Below, piece by piece: positions 14,294 to 47,736 of a stretch of 64,000 bases of DNA; positions within the stretch are counted from its first letter, which is position 1; each line of letters opens with the position of its first letter. The notes beneath the pieces are model-generated. The model was given only the letters and a program-made list of their open reading frames with translations, made no database searches and was not told the origin of the DNA. The DNA is from a virus, in the UHGV virus genome UHGV-1558314; one strand, given 5' to 3'. The position numbers and the translations under genes are program-made.

Positions 14294-15949
14294 TTATGCA
14301 AGCAATGTTTGCAGCATGTAGCAGCCTTTTGCATATGCGACAATTGCTTTTGCAGGATTGTTCTTGATGTATGCAGGCAACTTGAGCCAAATCAGTGCTA
14401 CAAGAACTTTCTGTCGCAGCGTTAAATCAAGTTCATCAATGTTGTAGCCAATGACTTTTGCTCTGACATCGCCATCAACATAATCGAATTGCTGATATGC
14501 TGACTGATTGAATGCATCATAGCCAGACAAGCCATATGCAAACTTTGCAATGTCATAATCGATGTCACCAGTCATCTTGACGTCACCAAAGTAGCCTCTT
14601 GGGTCAATGAACATGCATTTTGATGAATCTGCACTGAACATTGTATTTGACGTATTCGGGTCACCATGAATGAATGACCAATTTTCGCATGCATAGTCAA
14701 TTGAATCTTCTTGTGACAAGAAGAATCTTAACTTGCTCATCAGTTCATCGAATGGCATCAATGCAATACCATTGAATGATTTGATGCCTGCTACAAGTGA
14801 CTTGACTTCAGCATATCTTGCAATAGTAGTCTCAATGTACTCTTTGCGCATTGCGTCAATCATTTGCTGTCTGCTAACTGGCCAAATCTCGTCATTGTCA
14901 AGATTACTTGCATGCAATTCATTGATTGACTGTTTGAATGTTGTCATGCAGCCACGAGCAATTGCAGCATATCTACGCTCAATATCAACTTTGTTGAGGA
15001 ACTGATGTACAGTCACTCCGTTAATTTTCGACATTTTGATGAAGTCTTCACCAGTTTCAAATATCGATGGAATGACTGTCGATTCTGCATTCATAGCATG
15101 ACGATACCATTCTTGTTCTTTCTGAATGAGTGCCAAACCACGAGCATTTGTAGCAGATTTCGTAACAATATCGCCATCAATGCTAATGCTATTGAAATAC
15201 CGCACTTCATTATCACGTGCAGCCTTGACTGCTTCACTGACAAATGCTCCGCGTTCGCCATATGAATGACAGCCAGCAATTTCATATCTGTCTACAAATG
15301 TAACGTTGGTCATTAAATCAGCAAAATCAGCATTGTTATCATTATGCTGCATATCAATGACATTGTTATGAAACGCTGCAGGTACATAATATGCGCCAAC
15401 AATGCCACTATGATATGTAGACTCATACAAATGGTCGAGCACATATGCTTCTGCATCTGCATAAGACCCTACTTTGTAGAATGCATCAGTAGGAATGAGA
15501 TGCAGTCTGCAATCAATGTCATTTGACGTGCAACAAGTTATGCAGCCATTTTTGAATTCTGCAAACGGCAATTCAATATCGCCAAGCCACACATCAGACC
15601 AATGATAGAATACATTGCAATCACCAATGTTGTTAGCAACAAACATTGCTACATCTGCGCATGCTTTTGCTGAGCCATCAGCTTTGTCATGCACAATAGT
15701 TGATAACTTGATATCTGGTGCAAATGCTGCAGCATGTTCATGAATCATTGCTACATGAGTGTCATTTGCACATGCAACAATGACTTCATCAAACTGTCGA
15801 GCATAGGATGTCAAAATCTTTGCAAGCACTGTTTGTTTGCCTGCATTTACAAGAGTTTTAGGGATGTAATTGTTGCCGGTCATTGTTGACATGCGAGTGC
15901 CCAACCCACATGCAATGATTGCTAACACATTTGGATATTGATGAGACAT
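14294..15949 (-). CDS. Bifunctional sugar-phosphate nucleotidyltransferase / APH-family kinase
   Basis: N-terminal VLAIIACGLGTRMSTMTGNNYIPKTLVNAGKQ (NTP-transferase G-loop); C-terminal FIHGDPNTSN and CMFIDPRG (APH/choline-kinase Brenner motifs); ATG at 15947-15949. Confidence 0.8.
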   Translation of the reverse strand: MSHQYPNVLAIIACGLGTRMSTMTGNNYIPKTLVNAGKQTVLAKILTSYARQFDEVIVACANDTHVAMIHEHAAAFAPDIKLSTIVHDKADGSAKACADVAMFVANNIGDCNVFYHWSDVWLGDIELPFAEFKNGCITCCTSNDIDCRLHLIPTDAFYKVGSYADAEAYVLDHLYESTYHSGIVGAYYVPAAFHNNVIDMQHNDNNADFADLMTNVTFVDRYEIAGCHSYGERGAFVSEAVKAARDNEVRYFNSISIDGDIVTKSATNARGLALIQKEQEWYRHAMNAESTVIPSIFETGEDFIKMSKINGVTVHQFLNKVDIERRYAAIARGCMTTFKQSINELHASNLDNDEIWPVSRQQMIDAMRKEYIETTIARYAEVKSLVAGIKSFNGIALMPFDELMSKLRFFLSQEDSIDYACENWSFIHGDPNTSNTMFSADSSKCMFIDPRGYFGDVKMTGDIDYDIAKFAYGLSGYDAFNQSAYQQFDYVDGDVRAKVIGYNIDELDLTLRQKVLVALIWLKLPAYIKNNPAKAIVAYAKGCYMLQTLLA

Positions 15950-15971
15950 TGTGTAGTATTGTTTATATGAA

Positions 15972-16000
15972 TATTGTACAATATGCATTGCTATTTTGCA
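15972..16000 (-). promoter_or_regulatory. Sigma70-like promoter (TTGCAA-N17-TACAAT)
   Basis: Plus attgtacaat at 15972-15981, ttgcaa at 15995-16000. Confidence 0.55.
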
Positions 16001-16248
16001 AGATGACAATGCTTACGCCATACTGCAATTTCAACATCTGTAGCAAAATCAAAGTGCAAGCCATGCAATTGTTTCATGTCATATTGACGTCTTGCAATAT
16101 ACTTATTGCCAACTCGCTCAACAACAGAACCAATTTCTACTACATTTTTAGAATGTCGTGGCTCATGTAATGGCACTCTGAATATGTATCTGCCATCTAA
16201 TGTTGACATTATGTCACCATTGTCAATTATGCCTGTTTGCCTGCTCAT
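15991..16248 (-). CDS. Hypothetical small protein (85 aa)
   Basis: ORF track only. Confidence 0.4.
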   Translation of the reverse strand: MSRQTGIIDNGDIMSTLDGRYIFRVPLHEPRHSKNVVEIGSVVERVGNKYIARRQYDMKQLHGLHFDFATDVEIAVWRKHCHLAK

Positions 16249-16263
16249 TGTTAAAGCATCAAG

Positions 16264-16938
16264 TTATTTTTGAATGTCTACAAGTTCTGCTGCAATTCTA
16301 TCATATGCTAGCATGTGCTTAATTGCGTCATCAAGCAGCTTGTTAAATTCAAGATACTGCTGCAGCACTTTGTCATTCTGCAATGACTGCTCAAGCGCAG
16401 CATAATCACCTGCAAACGGGCGATTCATTGACAGGCCAAAGTTCTTCGCACATTTAGCATAAAATGCATTGTACTCTGCAGCATCAATTGGTGTCGCGTC
16501 ATGAGCTTTAAGCGCACTTTCACTGAGCAACGGGATGGTTTGCTTTCTGCAACGAGTAAACTCGTCTTTGTCAACATACAACACAGAACAACGAACGACA
16601 TTGTCTTCTGCATTCATACCACCTGTCAACAAATCCATTTCCCAATCGAAGCAAATGTTGTAGATGTACAGCATCACAGTTCGATGCTTGTTATCAACAA
16701 ACTTCCAATATCGAGACTTTTTGCAGATAGCTTTGATATGCTGCAAGTCATGCATAAACTTATCATGCGATATCGCATCAAAGCGAGGCAATGATTTGTT
16801 GTCAATGAATGTGTTTGCTGCATCTGCACAACGTTTGAATTCTGCTTGATGCATATTCAGCTCTTCTATGCGCTTTGCTACAAGCGCTTCATATTCTGCT
16901 TTTGCAAGAGCAAGTCTTGCTTCATACAAACTTTGCAT
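16264..16938 (-). CDS. Hypothetical protein (224 aa)
   Basis: ORF track; no motif. Confidence 0.6.
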   Translation of the reverse strand: MQSLYEARLALAKAEYEALVAKRIEELNMHQAEFKRCADAANTFIDNKSLPRFDAISHDKFMHDLQHIKAICKKSRYWKFVDNKHRTVMLYIYNICFDWEMDLLTGGMNAEDNVVRCSVLYVDKDEFTRCRKQTIPLLSESALKAHDATPIDAAEYNAFYAKCAKNFGLSMNRPFAGDYAALEQSLQNDKVLQQYLEFNKLLDDAIKHMLAYDRIAAELVDIQK

Positions 16939-16963
16939 ATTTGTGTATGTTTATGAGTTTCTG

Positions 16964-17420
16964 TTAAAATTTGCCATCTGCTACTTGAAAACATTGATAG
17001 CCAAGCTCTCGCCATTTAGCGACCATGGAATCGCGGTCTTCAAGCACAAATGCAATTTGTTGCAGTTCGTCTTCAGACAATGTTTCTACAAGCAATTCAG
17101 GTTTGACAAGCGTATCATGACGTTTATCACCATCTTTTCGCATAAGAATTTGCGGATTGACGATTCTGCCATCTGTATGCTGTGCAAGCCAAACTTCTGT
17201 CATCTGTCTGCAGCTTTCACGACGACCTGTGCAGAATATGATTCTGTAGCCAACTTGCTGCAAATCGCAAAGCAAGTCAAGCACAGTCATAATAGGCTTG
17301 TCTTCATAACAGTGTGCATAAAATGCATCCCCAATCTTTGTTTGATTGTTGAAGATATTTTAGACGGTCGCCAACTTTTGAAATTGTTCCGTCAATGTCG
17401 CATATGATGATATTTGCCAT
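16964..17420 (-). CDS. HAD-superfamily phosphatase interrupted by an apparent frameshift (two ORF fragments)
   Basis: N-fragment from ATG 17418-17420: MANIIICDIDGTISKVGDRLKYLQQSNKDWG... (DxDGT motif I); C-fragment 16964-17290 has IIFCTGRRE, RKDGDKR, EDRD; frames differ, shift localises to C4 run at 17329-17332. Confidence 0.6.
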
Positions 17421-17439
17421 GATATGTATGCTTATGAAA

Positions 17440-17463
17440 GGAAGAGCTCAATTGAGCTCTTCC
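17440..17463 (-). terminator. Palindromic hairpin ggaagagctcaattgagctcttcc
   Basis: 24-nt perfect palindrome downstream of gene 17495..18367. Confidence 0.5.
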
Positions 17464-17494
17464 TGATAGTCAACTTGATAAACCTCTACGAAAA

Positions 17495-18367
17495 TCAAGC
17501 CTGACTACTTTTGTTGATTACGAGATACTTGTATCGTTCTTTGATTGTGATGTTCTTTGATTTTGCTGCCTCGAGTTCTTTACGTTCCTTGGAGGAATAG
17601 TTGAACTTGATGTAGTCGGAGAACAATTCGGGCTTATCTGCTACTTCATTGTTCTTGACTTCTTTTACAAGAGTTTGCTGAAACTCATTGATTGTAGTGA
17701 AACCAAGGAATGACTGGAACTTGTTAAGCGGAAACAACTTATCTGTGTTGTCCTCGAATGTCGGGAATTCGTCGGAATACGTAATTTCGATTTGGTCTAC
17801 GAAATATCTAAGTTTTTCCCAAGGTTCCTTGCCAATGAGGAGAATGTTCTGATGGTCAAGTTTTTCCTCGAACATTTCCAGGAGGCATTCGTATGATTTT
17901 ACGAGACGAACTCCAGGATATGTAATTGATGCAATTGAACGAGGTTTGTGAGTTGTCTTGACTTCTTTATTGTACGTTTCCTCATCAATGCAATAGATGT
18001 ATCGCTTGACCTTGTCGTATTCTTTCGGAAGATAGTTGTTGTCAAGGAATTGCTTGTCAACTACAATGAAACTGAAAGGATAGAGTTCATTGAATCGTTG
18101 ACGAAGCTGTTCTGTTGCAAGGAAGAAATGCGAGCCATCTTTTGCTGCAAATTCCATATTTGAATTGCATCCTGCATATGCAATGTATCTGTTTCGCTTC
18201 CATTTAAGGAATCGACTTACCAGATTCTTTTCGAAGATATCCTTGTATTTGAAGTTAGTGTCCCAGTACTCCTTAACAATTCCATCTTGCATTTTTCTTG
18301 ACAATTTTGAATTGTCTACCGGCCTATCAGTAAAAACTGAAGGTTTGTTTGCATTGTATAATCCCAT
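17495..18367 (-). CDS. Hypothetical Lys-rich protein (290 aa), late-promoter class
   Basis: ATG at 18365-18367 (MGLYNANKPSVF) preceded by AACCTCTACTACA; ORF-track N-terminal extension crosses the promoter. Confidence 0.7.
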   Translation of the reverse strand: MGLYNANKPSVFTDRPVDNSKLSRKMQDGIVKEYWDTNFKYKDIFEKNLVSRFLKWKRNRYIAYAGCNSNMEFAAKDGSHFFLATEQLRQRFNELYPFSFIVVDKQFLDNNYLPKEYDKVKRYIYCIDEETYNKEVKTTHKPRSIASITYPGVRLVKSYECLLEMFEEKLDHQNILLIGKEPWEKLRYFVDQIEITYSDEFPTFEDNTDKLFPLNKFQSFLGFTTINEFQQTLVKEVKNNEVADKPELFSDYIKFNYSSKERKELEAAKSKNITIKERYKYLVINKSSQA

Positions 18368-18461
18368 TGTAGTAGAGGTTTTTGTTAAATTTATTATATA
18401 TGTATATATTACAACGACAGTGCAAAATTTGCACTGTCGTAGCATAAAAGTTTACACATTT

Positions 18462-18806
18462 TTACAAATATGAGTACAGTTTGTTCATAACTCGTTCAAT
18501 TGCAAATTCAACACCATATTGCAACAACTGTTCAGTGCTAAATGTCTTTGCTGCATGTGCATGCGCAACAATATGCTTTGTCTGTGCATATAATATCCAA
18601 GTATCAGTTGGCCTGTCATAAGTTACTGTCAGTCTACATGTTTGCAACACAAACTCTTGACTAAAGTATTCTCTTCGCCAAAACTCTGGTTCTGCAATAT
18701 GCAAATCAAGCCAAGCAAACTCAAACAGAATTTGTTTAAGTTGACGTTGATGCTTACGTTCAGCACGATATGAGTTGCTGAATAGCCATTTAATGATGTT
18801 CATCAT
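18462..18806 (-). CDS. Hypothetical protein (about 114 aa)
   Basis: ATGA start/stop overlap with upstream SIS gene. Confidence 0.5.
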   Translation of the reverse strand: MMNIIKWLFSNSYRAERKHQRQLKQILFEFAWLDLHIAEPEFWRREYFSQEFVLQTCRLTVTYDRPTDTWILYAQTKHIVAHAHAAKTFSTEQLLQYGVEFAIERVMNKLYSYL

Positions 18807-19519
18807 TTGCAATCATTATGCTGAGTATGAATTGCGTTGCCCTGTGAATCCAAGCGAATCGCAGTTTGCATTGCGACTTCAGATTGTGTTTGTTCTGCTT
18901 GACGAGCTCTTTGAAGTCCACCTCCAGGGTGACATGTGTAAAATCTATCAAAGTCAGTGCCAAGCTGTTCAGCAACAGACAACATGATGTTATCACCAAT
19001 GAGCTGAGATGCTAGCAGAGAATTCGTCGGAATTCGTGGATTGCGTGAGTCCTCGTCAATTGCTGGCAATGATACAAGCAAGTCTGCCCAAGCATTCATA
19101 TCAGTGACCTTGCCACCAGCAAAGTTAATGCCGATGATTTGGCAATTCGGTGCAAGCAATTCACGATGTTCACGAAGATATGTCATTGCAGTTGCAAGTT
19201 CAGATGTGTTGCCTGTTTTGCTGAATGCTACAATAACATCATTGTTTCGAATCATACCAAAGTCACCATGCATTGCATGTACTGCATCAAAGAACGCAGC
19301 ATCAAGTGAAATTGAATAGCATGTTGCAGCAAGTTTTTCACAGCAATGCACATTTTTGCCAATGCCAGTGAACAATACTTTGCCATCAGACTTCAATGCA
19401 TTTGCAATAATGTCTGCTGCAATGCCAAGAACATCATATTGCGCATCTGAAATGTTGTTGTGCCATGCTACAAGCGACTCGACTGATGCAGCAATGCCTT
19501 TGTGTACAAGTGTTTTCAT
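18803..19519 (-). CDS. SIS-domain sugar-phosphate isomerase (arabinose-5-phosphate isomerase KpsF/GutQ-like, no CBS domains)
   Basis: GKVLFTGIGKN...KLAATCYSISLDAAFFDAVHAMHGDFGMI...DVIVAFSKTGNTSEL matches the KpsF/KdsD SIS signature. Confidence 0.8.
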   Translation of the reverse strand: MKTLVHKGIAASVESLVAWHNNISDAQYDVLGIAADIIANALKSDGKVLFTGIGKNVHCCEKLAATCYSISLDAAFFDAVHAMHGDFGMIRNNDVIVAFSKTGNTSELATAMTYLREHRELLAPNCQIIGINFAGGKVTDMNAWADLLVSLPAIDEDSRNPRIPTNSLLASQLIGDNIMLSVAEQLGTDFDRFYTCHPGGGLQRARQAEQTQSEVAMQTAIRLDSQGNAIHTQHNDCK

Positions 19520-19537
19520 TTTGTGATGTTTGAAGGT

Positions 19538-20221
19538 TCAAAGAAACTTGAGTTTTGACAGCATTTCAGTGTCTTGTTCTGTGTTGATGCCAAGCTCTTG
19601 CATGACATCAAGCAACGCAGACCATAATTGCTCATATGATTGCCCACCCCCATTCATGACAACTGCATCAACGAACAACTCGTCGATGTGCTGCTCACTT
19701 GAATGATTGATGTTTTGCATGACATCATCATTAACAATCTTTATGAGTTTGAAGCCTCTTGAGCGCAATGCGGTCGCTTCATTTGGATATCGACAGTCAC
19801 CAACACAAATGAGAGCTTCATTATGACAGTTGTCAAGTCGATACAACAAACTATTGACAAAGAAGTCTTCACCATACAGTTTCTTGAGCACATCTGAAAC
19901 ATCAAGATGCACATTGCGAATCGATGAACCTGCAAACTCTACAAAGTGTTTTTGTTTGAATGCATTGTTATGCAAGTCTTGCAAATTGTAGCCCAGTGTA
20001 CTTGCAATAAATGCTTTCAGTGGCTTTGCAAAGCACTCATATGCAAGATTGCAGCCACATGACCAGTATGGATTTGCTTCAATTTGCTGCAAAGTTGATG
20101 TGTAAATGCTATCAATTACAGTGAACTTGCATTTAGTCATGACTCGAATCATCGCCCAAGCCAAATCTTTGCCTACGCCTGCATGACCAACAAGCGCAAT
20201 TTTTGTTATGTCATCATTCAT
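19538..20221 (-). CDS. P-loop kinase, deoxynucleoside monophosphate kinase-like
   Basis: Walker A-like IALVGHAGVGKD at N-terminus; size and position resemble T4 gp1-type dNMP kinases; function tentative. Confidence 0.6.
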   Translation of the reverse strand: MNDDITKIALVGHAGVGKDLAWAMIRVMTKCKFTVIDSIYTSTLQQIEANPYWSCGCNLAYECFAKPLKAFIASTLGYNLQDLHNNAFKQKHFVEFAGSSIRNVHLDVSDVLKKLYGEDFFVNSLLYRLDNCHNEALICVGDCRYPNEATALRSRGFKLIKIVNDDVMQNINHSSEQHIDELFVDAVVMNGGGQSYEQLWSALLDVMQELGINTEQDTEMLSKLKFL

Positions 20222-20707: not shown

Positions 20708-21265
20708 TTAAAATTTGGATAGACTCGTAGTTGAATCAATGCGCAAAGAATCTGCTATAGGTGCGCAATCATCAATTGGGCGACTTGCAGGCTTAACTTT
20801 GAGCATGTACATTCTGCAGTTGCCAATATCTATAAGGGAACCAGAACGTGTCATATAATCACAACCCAAAATGCCAACAACTTCATGACCAAGTGCTTTG
20901 CTAAGCTGAACTAAAATAGGCGAAATGTCGTCAATAAACATGTCCAGCTGTACAGAACCATTTGCGATAGTAATGTCTGCATCTATTGCATGAGATACTT
21001 GAAGAGCTCCTGTGACATATGATAGTCGCTTAACTGAACGCTCTTTGCCAACCATGTCATGAGTTGCAACAAATGTGCTGTCAATCAATGACAATGATGC
21101 GCCAGTGTCAAGCAAAAGCCATGTGTCGACACCATTGACATTTGCATGCACAAATGGCAGGCTCTTCAAAACAATCGGTGACTGTGATTGCTGCAATGCT
21201 TCATTACACATTGTCAGCGTCATAATCGCAAGTAGCGATATAAGAAACAATTTGAATGTTTTCAT
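20708..21265 (-). CDS. Retropepsin-like aspartic protease with signal peptide / possible lipobox
   Basis: N-terminal MKTFKLFLISLLAIMTLTMC; active-site LLDTGAS; GILGCDYM downstream. Confidence 0.75.
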   Translation of the reverse strand: MKTFKLFLISLLAIMTLTMCNEALQQSQSPIVLKSLPFVHANVNGVDTWLLLDTGASLSLIDSTFVATHDMVGKERSVKRLSYVTGALQVSHAIDADITIANGSVQLDMFIDDISPILVQLSKALGHEVVGILGCDYMTRSGSLIDIGNCRMYMLKVKPASRPIDDCAPIADSLRIDSTTSLSKF

Positions 21266-23474: not shown

Positions 23475-24494
23475 CTATTGCTTATGCCAGCCATATGATG
23501 CCTGACCAGCATCATACACTTCTACAAAACCATGGTCGTACATAAAATCTTCATTACGAGTGCCCTTGCCCCCATTAGTACCAAGAATACGGTCTGCACC
23601 ATGCATAAGCAGCATATTATTTGTGATATGTTGCTTTGTCAGCATATTGAACCAATGTTTGCTATATGACAAGCCAAGACCATCAAAGCCCAGCTTTGTG
23701 TACACGCCACCATCAAACTTGCTCAAATCACAATACGACAACACAGATTCAGGGTCATATGTCTTGATAAAGTGCTTGAATATGCGTTCGGCGCCACCTA
23801 CGACTTTTGTTGCTGCACAAAGACGCAGTAGTTCATACTGATATCGCTTATTGTATCGTGGACGACCAAATGTCATAAGCTGATGTATGACATAGCCGCC
23901 AAGCAATTCAAGTGGATGGCCTTCAATCAACGCAAGATTGATAAAATTGCCTGAGCACTTGCCTTGCAAATGATGTTCAATCAAAAATTGATTTGCAGTA
24001 TACTTGTCAATTTCAACAACTTTAAGCTTGCGAGCATATACAATCTTTGATTTGTCTACGATTTGATGCTTGATGTGATTGATAACTTTCTTGGCGTCAT
24101 CCCAATCCCACACATGAATGCAATGAAAGCCTGCAGCTTTTGCAATGTCTGTTTTCTTTGCATGAATATCACAAGGCAAATGCGAATCTTTTGCAGCATG
24201 CATAAATAGATGCTCAAATGAATGCGTGCTATTATGTGAAAATGTGGGATTGATGTTGATGACGATGTTGTCATGTCTAAAATCGAAGACTTCATCACCA
24301 ATAACAAAGTTGCGCTCAAAATCTATACCGACATGTTTGAGTAATACTTGATGCCACACATCTTTATAGGCTGATTCAAGATTGCTTAGCTCATCACAGT
24401 TTGCAATATTTTTGTAACGTTGAATAGCAGCATCAAAGTCAAGATTGACTTCAGCGTAGTCTGCATTTTTATCGTAGTGAAATTTTGAGCTCAT
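23475..24494 (-). CDS. Homing-endonuclease-like protein, family paralog 1 (Vsr/DUF559-like nuclease motif)
   Basis: IVININPTFSHNSTHSF ... GFHCIHVWDWDD and C-terminal VEVYDAGQ shared with paralogs; ATG at 24492-24494. Confidence 0.75.
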   Translation of the reverse strand: MSSKFHYDKNADYAEVNLDFDAAIQRYKNIANCDELSNLESAYKDVWHQVLLKHVGIDFERNFVIGDEVFDFRHDNIVININPTFSHNSTHSFEHLFMHAAKDSHLPCDIHAKKTDIAKAAGFHCIHVWDWDDAKKVINHIKHQIVDKSKIVYARKLKVVEIDKYTANQFLIEHHLQGKCSGNFINLALIEGHPLELLGGYVIHQLMTFGRPRYNKRYQYELLRLCAATKVVGGAERIFKHFIKTYDPESVLSYCDLSKFDGGVYTKLGFDGLGLSYSKHWFNMLTKQHITNNMLLMHGADRILGTNGGKGTRNEDFMYDHGFVEVYDAGQASYGWHKQ

Positions 24495-24515
24495 GTGTAT
24501 AATTTGTATGAGATT

Positions 24516-24544
24516 ATTGTACAACATGCAAATGCATGTTGCAT
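24516..24544 (-). promoter_or_regulatory. Sigma70-like promoter (ATGCAA-N17-TACAAT)
   Basis: Plus attgtacaac at 24516-24525, ttgcat at 24539-24544. Confidence 0.5.
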
Positions 24545-24598
24545 TTGATGCAAAGTACTGCGTACACAACATAAAGTACAAGTTTGCTTTTGACAGAC

Positions 24599-46480: not shown

Positions 46481-47736
46481 TAACTGTCATACGACCAGTG
46501 ACCACAGTCATACACTGGCACAAATCCAGTGTCAAGCATTTCTTGCTCATTAAAGTCATCATCAAGCAAGTGTTCACCCGATTTTGTATTAACCCAGTGC
46601 TTCTTAATTGTGCATTCATCAACCGCAAAGGGATTAAGTACATTGTCAGTACAGTCAATGAACGCATCATTCAAATGCGCTTCAATGATATGAAGCACAA
46701 TTTCTTGGTCGTGCCAATCAAATATCATGAGTGGCGTGTAGCCACATGCAATTGCAAGTTGTTGCTTCCACCAATGATAGTTTGGCTATTTTGCTTCTGC
46801 AGCATTTCGTTTAAAGCCATACACGCTATTATGAGTATGCGTCGGGTTAACGTCAATTAGCAGATTGCCATAATACAGGTCATATGACGTTATGCCAACA
46901 CCATGTTCAAACTCAAAATGCACACCAAGATGTTCTTCAATGTATGATTGCCACCATCTGTTTGGCGCAGATATGATTTGCCCATTTGCTTGCATACATT
47001 TATTTGTCATGCAAAACCATGGCACACCGTAACGTTCCATACAGGTTTTTGAAATTGCAGCAAGCCATTCATCTTTGTCTCTATGCGGCCATGCATAACC
47101 ATAACGCAGACGGCATGTTTGTTGAGCTTTAGCAACGATTGGCGCTAAACGTTCACCGTATATTTCACGTTTAGTTGCGATGGCTTTGCGTGGATTAGTC
47201 CATCCAGCATCACCCCATCGCTCAAGCTTCGTTTGCTGAGATTTTTCAACAATCAGTTCAAGATTCTCACCATATTTTTGACGACGAGTTTGCATTGCTG
47301 CAACATAATCTGTAATGCATCTATGGCCATACAAACGTTCTTTTGTCGCACATTGAACATCTACTGGACCTTGTGGATAGCCATAGCGTTCCATATTCGT
47401 TTGACGAATATGTGCTTTATCGCCATATGAACTGCCGTAGCGTGCAACTTTAGTGGCAATTGTTTGCTTGATGTTGCCTGCTTTAGAACCATAACGAGCT
47501 TCTTTAGTTGCTACGCATTTTTGTTTGACTTCTGCTCTGTTCCAATTATGCTCAACGCCATGTTTACGAAGATGGCCAATTTTCATGTTGTACACGTTTT
47601 TGATATGACCATGAGATGTCTTACGTGGTGCATATCGTACAAATGGTGTTTCTGCAAGCAACTTATCTCGTTCAGCTTCAAGCTCTTTAATTCGAGCTTC
47701 AAGAGCTTCACCAGTCAAAGGCTCTACATGTTTCAT
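46480..47736 (-). pseudogene. Homing-endonuclease-like paralog 4 interrupted by a single in-frame TAG (46786-46788)
   Basis: ORFs 46786..47736 and 46480..46728 are in the same frame; intervening codons read *PNYHWWKQQLAIACGYTPLMIFDW and align with intact paralogs. Confidence 0.7.

What the first reader, a model, noticed from the sequence alone, without database searches (positions are those of the whole stretch)
17290..17420. HAD phosphatase split by a frameshift at a C4 homopolymer
The DxDGT motif lies in a 37-codon ORF starting at 17420; the remaining HAD motifs are in ORF 16964..17290 in another frame, both reading frames being open across 17305-17360. A one-base shift at cccc (17329-17332) fuses them. 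It could be a homopolymer sequencing error, a pseudogene or a programmed shift, and the gene belongs to the candidate sugar module.
Basis: seen in the sequence. Interest (0 to 1): 0.45.

Follow-up and report, generated by a model that had tools for sequence, protein, structure and literature searches.

The report
Naturally frameshifted phage phosphatase gene
A small phosphatase gene in this large gut phage is broken by one extra G; the break looks real rather than a sequencing error, and it is one of several independent natural knock-outs of the same gene in related strains, so the gene is ordinary and dispensable.

Summary
On the minus strand, a 38-codon ORF (17304-17420, DIDGT motif) and a 108-codon ORF (16964-17290) overlap in two frames. 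Removing one G from GGGG (17329-17332) gives a 151-aa protein that matches Pfam HAD_PNKP end to end (E 9e-31).

A random sequencing error is unlikely. The same G4 occurs in three 100%-identical assemblies (window, ENA, Logan) and in an independent strain about 5% diverged (Logan ERR13912692). At least 12 other strains carry G3 and an intact gene.

A programmed frameshift is unlikely. Most strains need no shift, and no stimulatory signal was found.

Other strains of the same phage species carry different lesions in this gene:
- a +A/-T compensated double frameshift,
- a W136 stop,
- an 18-nt deletion that removes the catalytic lysine,
- missense changes at family-invariant residues.

All neighbouring genes but one stay intact in every strain. 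One strain has also lost the start of the isomerase gene.

Best reading: a recent, real null allele of a conditionally dispensable PNKP-type 3'-phosphatase gene.

The neighbours do resemble the published NDP-arabinose DNA-modification module. However, the phosphatase is not an AfhF/gp51 relative, and its closest homologues lie in non-sugar contexts. Interest is low to moderate.

The parts
16964..17420 (-). Whole frameshifted HAD_PNKP-type phosphatase gene. It would be 151 codons if the G run were GGG.
   Evidence: the corrected translation matches PF25109 positions 2-143/143 and the phosphatase domains of Pnkp1 (4xrp) and T4 Pnk (1ltq, 5uj0) end to end.
17304..17420 (-). N-terminal fragment ORF, 38 codons plus TGA. 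It carries HAD motif I (D8-I-D10-G-T12) and R19. The last 8 residues (GCILCTLL) are out of frame.
   Evidence: the invariant residues come from alignment A3.
17329..17332 (-). GGGG run (cccc on the + strand), the site of the +1 insertion. Intact orthologues have GGG, reading TGG GAT (W30 D31).
   Evidence: G4 in window, L003, L004 and L005. G3 in L001, L007-L016, L019 and L023-L025.
16964..17290 (-). C-terminal fragment ORF, 108 codons starting at the internal Met44. It carries motifs II-IV (T64-G-R66, K106, E127-D128) but no nucleophile.
17439..17464 (.). Perfect 13+13-nt palindrome between the upstream gene and the phosphatase start, conserved in all strains. It is probably a hairpin that ends the upstream transcript, or a binding site.
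   Evidence: inverted repeat I2, 100% complementary, no spacer; conserved in alignment A1. The function is an inference.
18803..19519 (-). Context: SIS-domain arabinose-5-phosphate isomerase (KpsF/GutQ/KdsD type).
   Evidence: (phrog_5670, E 2e-28).
14294..16009 (-). Context: AfhE-like fusion of a nucleotidyltransferase (N-terminal) and a kinase-like domain (C-terminal). The likely real start is the ATG at 15949, giving 551 aa.
   Evidence: phrog_4098, E 3e-76; homologues in RB69-like, JS10-like and Chryseobacterium phages.
19538..20221 (-). Context: deoxynucleoside monophosphate kinase.
   Evidence: phrog_139, E 4e-25.
17495..18367 (-). Context: 290-aa protein of unknown function immediately upstream. 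It is very conserved among strains and has a homologue beside the isomerase/AfhE-like genes of Chryseobacterium phage MA9V-2.
   Evidence: (27% over 259 aa, E 5e-22, to L017 1567-2313).

Best explanation
The window carries a real, evolutionarily recent loss-of-function allele of a small stand-alone phosphatase gene. The gene belongs to the HAD family, of the type that forms the 3'-phosphatase domain of polynucleotide kinase-phosphatases.

One extra G in a GGG run (TGG GAT became TGG GGA T) shifts the frame after Trp30. Translation then yields a 38-residue peptide that holds only the catalytic Asp motif. At best, re-initiation at Met44 adds a 108-residue fragment that lacks the nucleophile. Little or no active enzyme should therefore be made. 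This last step is inferred.

The phage is a roughly 175-kb PAU/MA9V-like myovirus from human gut metagenomes. It evidently tolerates loss of this gene. Across wild strains of the same species the gene has been hit repeatedly and independently by frameshifts, a nonsense codon, an in-frame deletion of the catalytic lysine, and missense changes at invariant residues. The surrounding genes stay intact. Each lesion looks young.

The overall pattern is a conditionally useful accessory gene. It is kept by purifying selection over long times (dN/dS about 0.1-0.15) and lost often in individual populations.
For: Shown:
1. The anatomy and the family match are given.
2. G4 is reproducible. The window is 100% identical over 6.27 kb to an ENA MEGAHIT contig (ERZ27260853, 175 kb) and to a Logan contig (ERR1136818), both with G4. 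An independent strain from ERR13912692 (L003, 94.6% identical over 4.4 kb) also has G4.
3. Most strains have G3 and an intact 151-aa gene.
4. G4 arose or toggled at least twice. The window allele differs from the intact L007 allele at 7 nt, but from the other G4 allele (L003) at 24 nt.
5. Further independent lesions sit on different haplotypes. L019 has A4->A5 at 17361 plus T4->T3 at 17323, which replaces residues 22-33. L023/L024 have TGG->TGA at W136. L025 has an 18-nt deletion that removes invariant K106-P107.
6. All other indels that are not multiples of three in about 6.3 kb are intergenic. The flanking genes u290, u224, u85, AfhE-like and the dNMP kinase are intact in every strain tested.
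7. Ten of 19 species-level alleles carry a disruption or a change at a residue that is invariant in 32 homologues.
8. Pairwise dN/dS in the corrected frame is 0.10-0.15. L003-specific changes are 8 synonymous to 5 non-synonymous, and no secondary lesions are present, so the frameshifts are young.
Against: No reads were available. The within-sample frequency of G4 is therefore unknown, and a systematic artefact cannot be excluded formally. The three 100%-identical G4 assemblies may come from one sample or one read set, so truly independent support for G4 rests on a single further strain (L003). The DNA loci were partly chosen because their proteins looked odd (P0002, P0003, P0005, P0126), so lesion frequencies are biased. 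Only 15 of the 45 members of the main protein cluster were visible. Loss of activity is inferred from motif positions and was not measured. GGA is a rare codon in this phage, so some full-length protein could arise by spontaneous +1 slippage.
Confidence: 0.75

Rival explanations
1. Adaptive on/off switching, resembling a contingency locus. Loss of the phosphatase is positively selected in some hosts, for example because it stops DNA arabinosylation and so evades a defence that depends on the modification. Short homopolymers in codons 21-34 supply frequent frameshifts that can be reversed or compensated.
For: There were at least two independent +G events at the same G3 run. A +A event was followed by a compensating -T. 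All of these lie within 40 nt. The gene lies between an arabinose-5-P isomerase and an AfhE-like enzyme. A HAD phosphatase is one step of the published UDP-arabinofuranose pathway (PMC13326640). Strain L025 has lesions in both the phosphatase and the isomerase start. There is a precedent: frameshifts in a simple-sequence repeat of T2 agt toggle DNA glucosylation and evade TgvAB (bioRxiv 10.1101/2025.10.21.683753).
Against: The runs are only 3-4 nt long, while the contingency-locus paper used repeats of at least 6 and an A9 tract. The other lesions (nonsense, deletion, missense) need no hypermutable tract and fit simple relaxed selection equally well. No true reversion was observed. The phosphatase is PNKP-type, shows no pairwise similarity to RB69 gp51, and has its closest homologues in non-sugar contexts. 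No thymidylate-synthase-like gene or glycosyltransferase was recognised in the window.
Confidence: 0.13
2. Sequencing or assembly error at a homopolymer. The real genome has GGG and an intact gene.
For: The lesion sits in a homopolymer, and all data are metagenome assemblies. The three identical G4 contigs could share one read set.
Against: G4 appears in assemblies made by different pipelines (MEGAHIT k119, Logan). It also appears in a separate sample and a diverged strain. Most assemblies of the same species give G3, so there is no systematic bias at this site. Neighbouring genes show no frameshifts in any strain, so these contigs are not generally prone to indel errors.
Confidence: 0.06
3. 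Programmed or fortuitous +1 ribosomal frameshift at UGG GGA U. The ribosome pauses on the rare GGA codon, the peptidyl-tRNA-Trp slips to GGG, GAU is read next, and full-length enzyme is made from the G4 allele.
For: The shift needed is +1. GGA is rare in this phage (2.1 per 1000 codons, against GGC at 28 per 1000), and the +1-frame codon GAU is abundant (38.8 per 1000). Both frames are open across the site. Neither G4 strain has a secondary lesion.
Against: Most strains encode the protein in a single frame, so the shift is not a conserved feature. The rare codon is an automatic result of adding a G in a genome depleted in GG. After slipping, tRNA-Trp would mispair at the first codon position (inference). 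No significant RNA structure was found (z = -1.0). The 0-frame stop lies 8 codons downstream rather than at the shift site. Other strains carry nonsense and deletion lesions that no frameshift could rescue.
Confidence: 0.05

Closest known systems
Phosphatase domain of polynucleotide kinase-phosphatases: T4 PseT/Pnk (PDB 1ltq, 5uj0), Capnocytophaga Pnkp1 (PDB 4xrp), Pfam PF25109 HAD_PNKP
   Same: The sequence matches end to end. The DxDGT nucleophile motif, T-G-R, the motif III lysine and the motif IV acidic pair are all present and invariant in the family. From my own knowledge, the residues that align with T4 Pnk D165, D167, R176, R213, D254, K258 and D277 are conserved here.
   Different: This is a stand-alone 151-aa domain with no P-loop kinase domain. 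In this window the gene is split by a frameshift. The substrate is unknown.
AfhF of phage HY126, RB69 gp51 and DLP3 gp81: the HAD phosphatase of the UDP-arabinofuranose pathway for glycosylated 5-hydroxycytosine DNA (PMC13326640)
   Same: It is a small HAD-superfamily phosphatase encoded among an arabinose-5-P isomerase, an AfhE-like nucleotidyltransferase-kinase and a dNMP kinase.
   Different: There is no pairwise similarity to RB69 gp51. Only a weak profile hit links it to phrog_1238 (E 8e-4); I take phrog_1238 to be the gp51 family only because both carry the label 'phosphoheptose isomerase', and gp51 was not scanned against it. The gene order differs. The nearest homologues outside the species are not next to sugar genes.
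Phage contingency loci, for example T2 agt (bioRxiv 10.1101/2025.10.21.683753)
   Same: Frameshift null alleles arise in homopolymers of a phage accessory gene that may be tied to DNA glycosylation. The same tract was hit more than once.
   Different: The tracts are 3-4 nt rather than 6-9 or more. No reversion and no within-population heterogeneity was shown. Many lesions in the same gene do not involve a repeat.
+1 programmed frameshifting at hungry codons (prfB, Ty1), from my own knowledge
   Same: A +1 shift is needed, the A-site codon is rare, and the +1-frame codon is abundant.
   Different: The shift is not conserved among orthologues. There is no stop codon or Shine-Dalgarno stimulator. 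Re-pairing of the P-site tRNA would be poor.

Membership tests
HAD_PNKP (PF25109), PNKP-type HAD phosphatase | Full-length profile match above the Pfam gathering score | tested here: met
   107.3 bits against 27.6, profile positions 2-143/143, but only after one G is removed. The two fragments match positions 2-23 and 35-143 separately.
HAD_PNKP (PF25109), PNKP-type HAD phosphatase | HAD catalytic motifs I-IV (DxDGT, T/S, K, acidic pair) | tested here: met
   D8, D10, G11, T12, T64, K106 and E127-D128 are invariant in 32 homologues and align with T4 Pnk and Pnkp1.
HAD_PNKP (PF25109), PNKP-type HAD phosphatase | A single uninterrupted reading frame that encodes all motifs | tested here: not met
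   motif I and motifs II-IV lie in different frames in the window. The window copy is a disrupted member of the family.
Bifunctional polynucleotide kinase-phosphatase (T4 PseT type) | P-loop 5'-kinase domain fused to the phosphatase | tested here: not met
   The gene encodes only 151 aa. Matches cover 1ltq residues 162-301 and 4xrp residues 179-312 only, and phrog_505 positions 162-295/295.
AfhF / RB69 gp51 sugar-bisphosphate phosphatase | Sequence relationship to gp51/AfhF | tested here: not met
   BLASTP against RB69p051 found no alignment. There is only a weak hit to phrog_1238 (E 8e-4). The link between phrog_1238 and gp51 rests on their shared annotation label and was not tested.
AfhF / RB69 gp51 sugar-bisphosphate phosphatase | Encoded together with an arabinose-5-P isomerase and an AfhE-like bifunctional enzyme | tested here: met
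   The isomerase lies 1.4 kb upstream and the AfhE-like gene about 1 kb downstream. The linkage is not kept in homologues at 61-65% identity.
AfhF / RB69 gp51 sugar-bisphosphate phosphatase | Mg2+-dependent dephosphorylation of arabinofuranose 1,5-bisphosphate | not testable with these tools
   This needs an enzyme assay.
Contingency locus (repeat-mediated phase variation) | A hypermutable simple-sequence repeat (at least 6 nt in the phage study) | tested here: not met
   The runs are G3/G4, A4/A5 and T4/T3.
Contingency locus (repeat-mediated phase variation) | Recurrent, reversible indels at the same tract | tested here: inconclusive
   There are two independent G4 alleles and one compensated pair. 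No reversion was demonstrated and no read-level data were available.
Programmed +1 ribosomal frameshift | The frameshift requirement is conserved among orthologues | tested here: not met
   At least 12 strains and all distant homologues are in a single frame.
Programmed +1 ribosomal frameshift | Slow-to-decode A-site codon at the shift site | tested here: met
   GGA occurs at 2.1 per 1000 codons. This follows automatically from adding a G in a genome depleted in GG.

The most novel reading that the evidence does not exclude
The phosphatase is the missing sugar-bisphosphate phosphatase of an arabinose-type DNA-hypermodification pathway in a gut Bacteroidota phage. Wild populations repeatedly switch the gene off, and sometimes back on through compensating indels. 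The switching would use short homopolymers clustered in codons 21-34. It would let the phage toggle DNA glycosylation against host defences that depend on the modification. This would be a natural, metagenome-scale counterpart of the T2 agt contingency locus, working with much shorter repeats.
Probability: 0.1. Interest if true: 0.6.

Novelty: new member of a known kind. Interest (0 to 1): 0.27.

Why it matters
The main value is for annotation. The two ORFs should be annotated as one disrupted gene, not as two proteins and not as a programmed frameshift. The split should not be silently corrected as a sequencing error.

The population pattern is mildly informative. Many independent young lesions sit in one gene while the neighbours stay intact, which marks the gene as a conditionally dispensable accessory gene in an uncultured gut phage of about 175 kb.

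If the phosphatase really feeds the adjacent arabinose-nucleotide module, these natural knock-outs would be ready-made material. They could be used to ask whether gut phages vary their DNA glycosylation between hosts.

Tried and rejected
- Nucleotide searches of the INPHARED phage collection found nothing, both for the gene (blastn) and for 20 kb around it (megablast). Protein-level relatives in that collection are all below 40% identical.
- IMG/VR holds only one related contig, which has G3.
- A scan of JGI metagenome contigs with the conserved gene start found nothing.
- The 38-aa N fragment is not on record as a called gene.
- I first took the ORF upstream of the AfhE-like gene in phage JS10 for the gp51 analogue. 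It has no similarity and no HAD domain. The true RB69 gp51 and its JS10 counterpart have no Pfam hit and no similarity to the window protein.
- Pfam and PHROG scans of about 35 other window ORFs found no thymidylate-synthase-like gene and no glycosyltransferase.
- RNA folding around the shift site gave no significant structure.
- The promoter/terminator scan was at background.
- There are no tRNA genes in the window.
- I did not run structure prediction, because the sequence alignments to solved PNKP phosphatase domains already span the junction.

Full report
**1. Observation**

All genes in this part of the window run on the minus strand. Read on that strand, an ATG at 17420 opens MANIIICDIDGTISKVGDRLKYLQQSNKDWGCILCTLL*, which is 38 codons with a stop at 17304-17306. 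A second ORF, 16964..17290, encodes 108 residues in another frame. The GGGG run (cccc on the + strand) lies at 17329-17332.

Removing one G gives a 151-aa ORF. This protein matches Pfam HAD_PNKP over the whole profile, positions 2-143/143, at E 9.4e-31. The two fragments match positions 2-23 and 35-143. PHROGs gives phrog_415 and phrog_505, both labelled 'polynucleotide kinase'. The protein also aligns end to end, across the junction, with the phosphatase domains of Capnocytophaga Pnkp1 (4xrp, E 7e-15) and T4 Pnk (5uj0, 1ltq). The only slip is 38 codons rather than 37.

**2. Is the extra G real?**

The INPHARED collection has no close phage. The large protein collection, however, holds a species-level group of 91-95% identical proteins.

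- The exact 108-aa fragment is recorded in three contigs. Two were retrievable: an ENA MEGAHIT contig of 175 kb (ERZ27260853) and a Logan contig (ERR1136818).
- Both are 100% identical to the window over 6.27 kb, and both have GGGG. They may share a sample with the window, so I count them as one strain seen by different assemblers.
- A further contig from a different run (L003, ERR13912692) is only 94.6% identical to the window over 4.4 kb, and it also has GGGG.
- L001 (IMG/VR, 174.6 kb), L007-L016, L019 and L023-L025 have GGG.
- The listed cluster members are mostly intact 151-aa proteins.
- Across about 6.3 kb and 12 comparison loci, every other indel that is not a multiple of three lies in an intergenic spacer. 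The flanking genes show no frameshift or stop in any strain.

A random homopolymer error is therefore very unlikely. Reads were not available, so this stays an inference from reproducibility.

**3. One lesion among many**

In the corrected frame, the window allele differs at 7 nt from the intact allele of L007. It differs at 24 nt from the other G4 allele, L003. So the +G arose twice, or toggled. Other strains carry different lesions on different haplotypes:

- L019 (ENA, Zeller cohort sample SAMEA2467027) has A4->A5 at window 17361 and T4->T3 at 17323. This compensated double frameshift rewrites residues 22-33.
- L023/L024 (SRR27381123/4) have TGG->TGA at W136, plus R19H.
- L025 (ENA, COST17-2) has an 18-nt in-frame deletion that removes K106-P107.

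An alignment of 32 homologues at 54-65% identity has 37 invariant positions. They include D8, D10, G11, T12, R19, W30, D31, F33, Y34, T64, G65, R66, K106, D128 and W136. Every one of the lesions above removes invariant residues.

Several full-length alleles also carry substitutions at invariant positions: G17D, W30L, G65S, D98N and R100C. In all, 10 of the 19 alleles I could see are disrupted or altered at an invariant site. Within-species variable sites hit invariant positions about as often as chance predicts, 6 observed against 7.6 expected.

The main haplotypes nevertheless differ with dN/dS of about 0.10-0.15. L003-specific changes are 8 synonymous to 5 non-synonymous, and no lesion-bearing allele has gathered a second disruption in the gene. 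The lesions are therefore young. The gene is maintained over the long term but is often lost locally.

One caveat applies to these frequencies. I chose P0002, P0003, P0005 and P0126 because they looked odd, and only 15 of the 45 cluster members were visible. The frequencies are rough.

**4. Consequence for the protein (inferred)**

The 38-aa product keeps only motif I. A product re-initiated at Met44, 13 nt after the stop, would keep motifs II-IV but would lack the nucleophile. Neither should be active alone.

A +1 ribosomal shift at UGG GGA U could in principle restore the frame. GGA is rare here (2.1 per 1000 codons, against 28 for GGC), and GAU is common. But GGA is the most depleted trinucleotide of the genome, so the rare codon is an automatic result of the insertion. 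Most strains need no shift. No RNA structure stands out (z = -1.0). Nonsense and deletion alleles occur in other strains. I rate a programmed shift at about 5%. A trace of full-length product by spontaneous slippage cannot be excluded.

**5. What the gene does, and the 'sugar module'**

The window belongs to a large myovirus with a tail sheath, portal, DNA end protector and ribonucleotide reductase. Its capsid protein is 33-37% identical to those of Chryseobacterium phage MA9V-2, Sphingomonas phage PAU and Tenacibaculum phage PTm1. Related contigs are about 175 kb long and come from human gut metagenomes.

Around the phosphatase lie:
- a KpsF/GutQ-type arabinose-5-phosphate isomerase, 18803-19519;
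- a dNMP kinase, 19538-20221;
- a 551-aa nucleotidyltransferase-kinase fusion, 14294-15949. Its homologues are the RB69 gp52:53 / JS10 gp042 / 'GlmU' proteins of T4-like and Chryseobacterium phages.

A 2026 paper assigns exactly this enzyme set to the synthesis of UDP-arabinofuranose for glycosylated 5-hydroxycytosine DNA: an isomerase, the bifunctional AfhE and the HAD phosphatase AfhF/gp51 (PMC13326640).

The phosphatase itself does not fit as neatly.
- It is PNKP-type and shows no pairwise similarity to RB69 gp51.
- Its only link to that group is a weak hit to phrog_1238 (E 8e-4). I take phrog_1238 to be the gp51 family only because both carry the label 'phosphoheptose isomerase'; gp51 was not scanned against it.
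- Its nearest relatives outside the species (61-65% identical) lie in unrelated phage contexts without sugar genes.
- The MA9V-2 cluster has no such gene within 5 kb.

One hint of linkage exists. Strain L025, with the lysine deletion, has also lost the isomerase start codon and has a stop at codon 5.

I estimate about 55% that the enzyme is a nucleotide or polynucleotide 3'-phosphatase. I estimate about 30% that it serves as a non-orthologous substitute for AfhF.

**6. Comparison with known things, and novelty**

The gene is a disrupted member of a well-known family. Natural pseudogene alleles of accessory genes are ordinary.

The nearest interesting parallel is the report that homopolymer frameshifts in T2 agt act as a contingency locus that toggles DNA glucosylation (bioRxiv 10.1101/2025.10.21.683753). 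Three features here resemble it: recurrence at the G run, a compensated +A/-T pair within 40 nt, and a possible tie to DNA glycosylation. Against it, the runs are only 3-4 nt, no reversion or within-sample heterogeneity is shown, and lesions that do not involve a repeat are at least as common. I give this reading about 10-13%.

**7. Verdict**

The feature is real. It is very probably not an artefact and very probably not programmed. It is a recent natural null allele of a dispensable PNKP-type HAD phosphatase gene, and one of several independent lesions of that gene in this phage species. Interest is low to moderate (0.27). In novelty terms it is a new member of a known kind.

Noticed in passing
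window 14294-20221 (-): The gene set resembles the published UDP-arabinofuranose / hypermodified-cytosine module: an arabinose-5-P isomerase, an AfhE-like nucleotidyltransferase-kinase and a dNMP kinase. It sits in an uncultured gut phage of about 175 kb related to the PAU and MA9V phages. No thymidylate-synthase-like gene or glycosyltransferase was recognised in the window. Several unknown ORFs lie between these genes: 290, 224, 116 and 85 aa.
   Followed up: partly
L019 1174-1629 (window equivalents 17361 and 17323): A wild strain carries a +A and a -T 38 nt apart in the same gene. This compensated double frameshift rewrites 12 residues, including invariant W30, D31 and F33.
   Followed up: yes
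L025 900-1616 and 3001-3438: One strain combines an 18-nt deletion of the phosphatase's catalytic lysine with loss of the start codon and a stop at codon 5 in the arabinose-5-P isomerase gene. This may indicate joint decay of one pathway.
   Followed up: partly
window 17439-17464: A perfect 26-nt palindrome (AGGAAGAGCTCAA/TTGAGCTCTTCCT) lies just upstream of the phosphatase start and is conserved in all strains. It is either a hairpin terminator of the upstream gene or a protein-binding site.
   Followed up: no
whole window, coding (minus) strand: GG and CC dinucleotides are strongly depleted (0.62 and 0.47 of expectation). GGA is the most depleted trinucleotide (0.55). The Gly codons GGA and GGG are each about 2 per 1000, against 28 for GGC. 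Only 4 G4 and 16 C4 runs occur on the + strand in 64 kb. The cause is unknown; possibilities include avoidance of a restriction or defence motif, or the host tRNA pool.
   Followed up: partly
window 20708-21265 (-): A 185-aa ORF matches retropepsin-like aspartyl protease domains (Asp_protease_2, E 1e-6; RVP, E 3e-4), which is unusual in a phage.
   Followed up: no
L010/L011 versus window 18803-19608: One strain (ERR1136811 and ERR1999775) has a diverged isomerase (85% identical) and an extra 328-aa gene inserted between the isomerase and the next gene. This is a mosaic replacement inside the module.
   Followed up: no
window 23475-24581 (-) and 46786-47736 (-): Two ORFs resemble homing or HNH endonucleases (phrog_3339 and phrog_559). 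One lies next to the capsid gene region.
   Followed up: no
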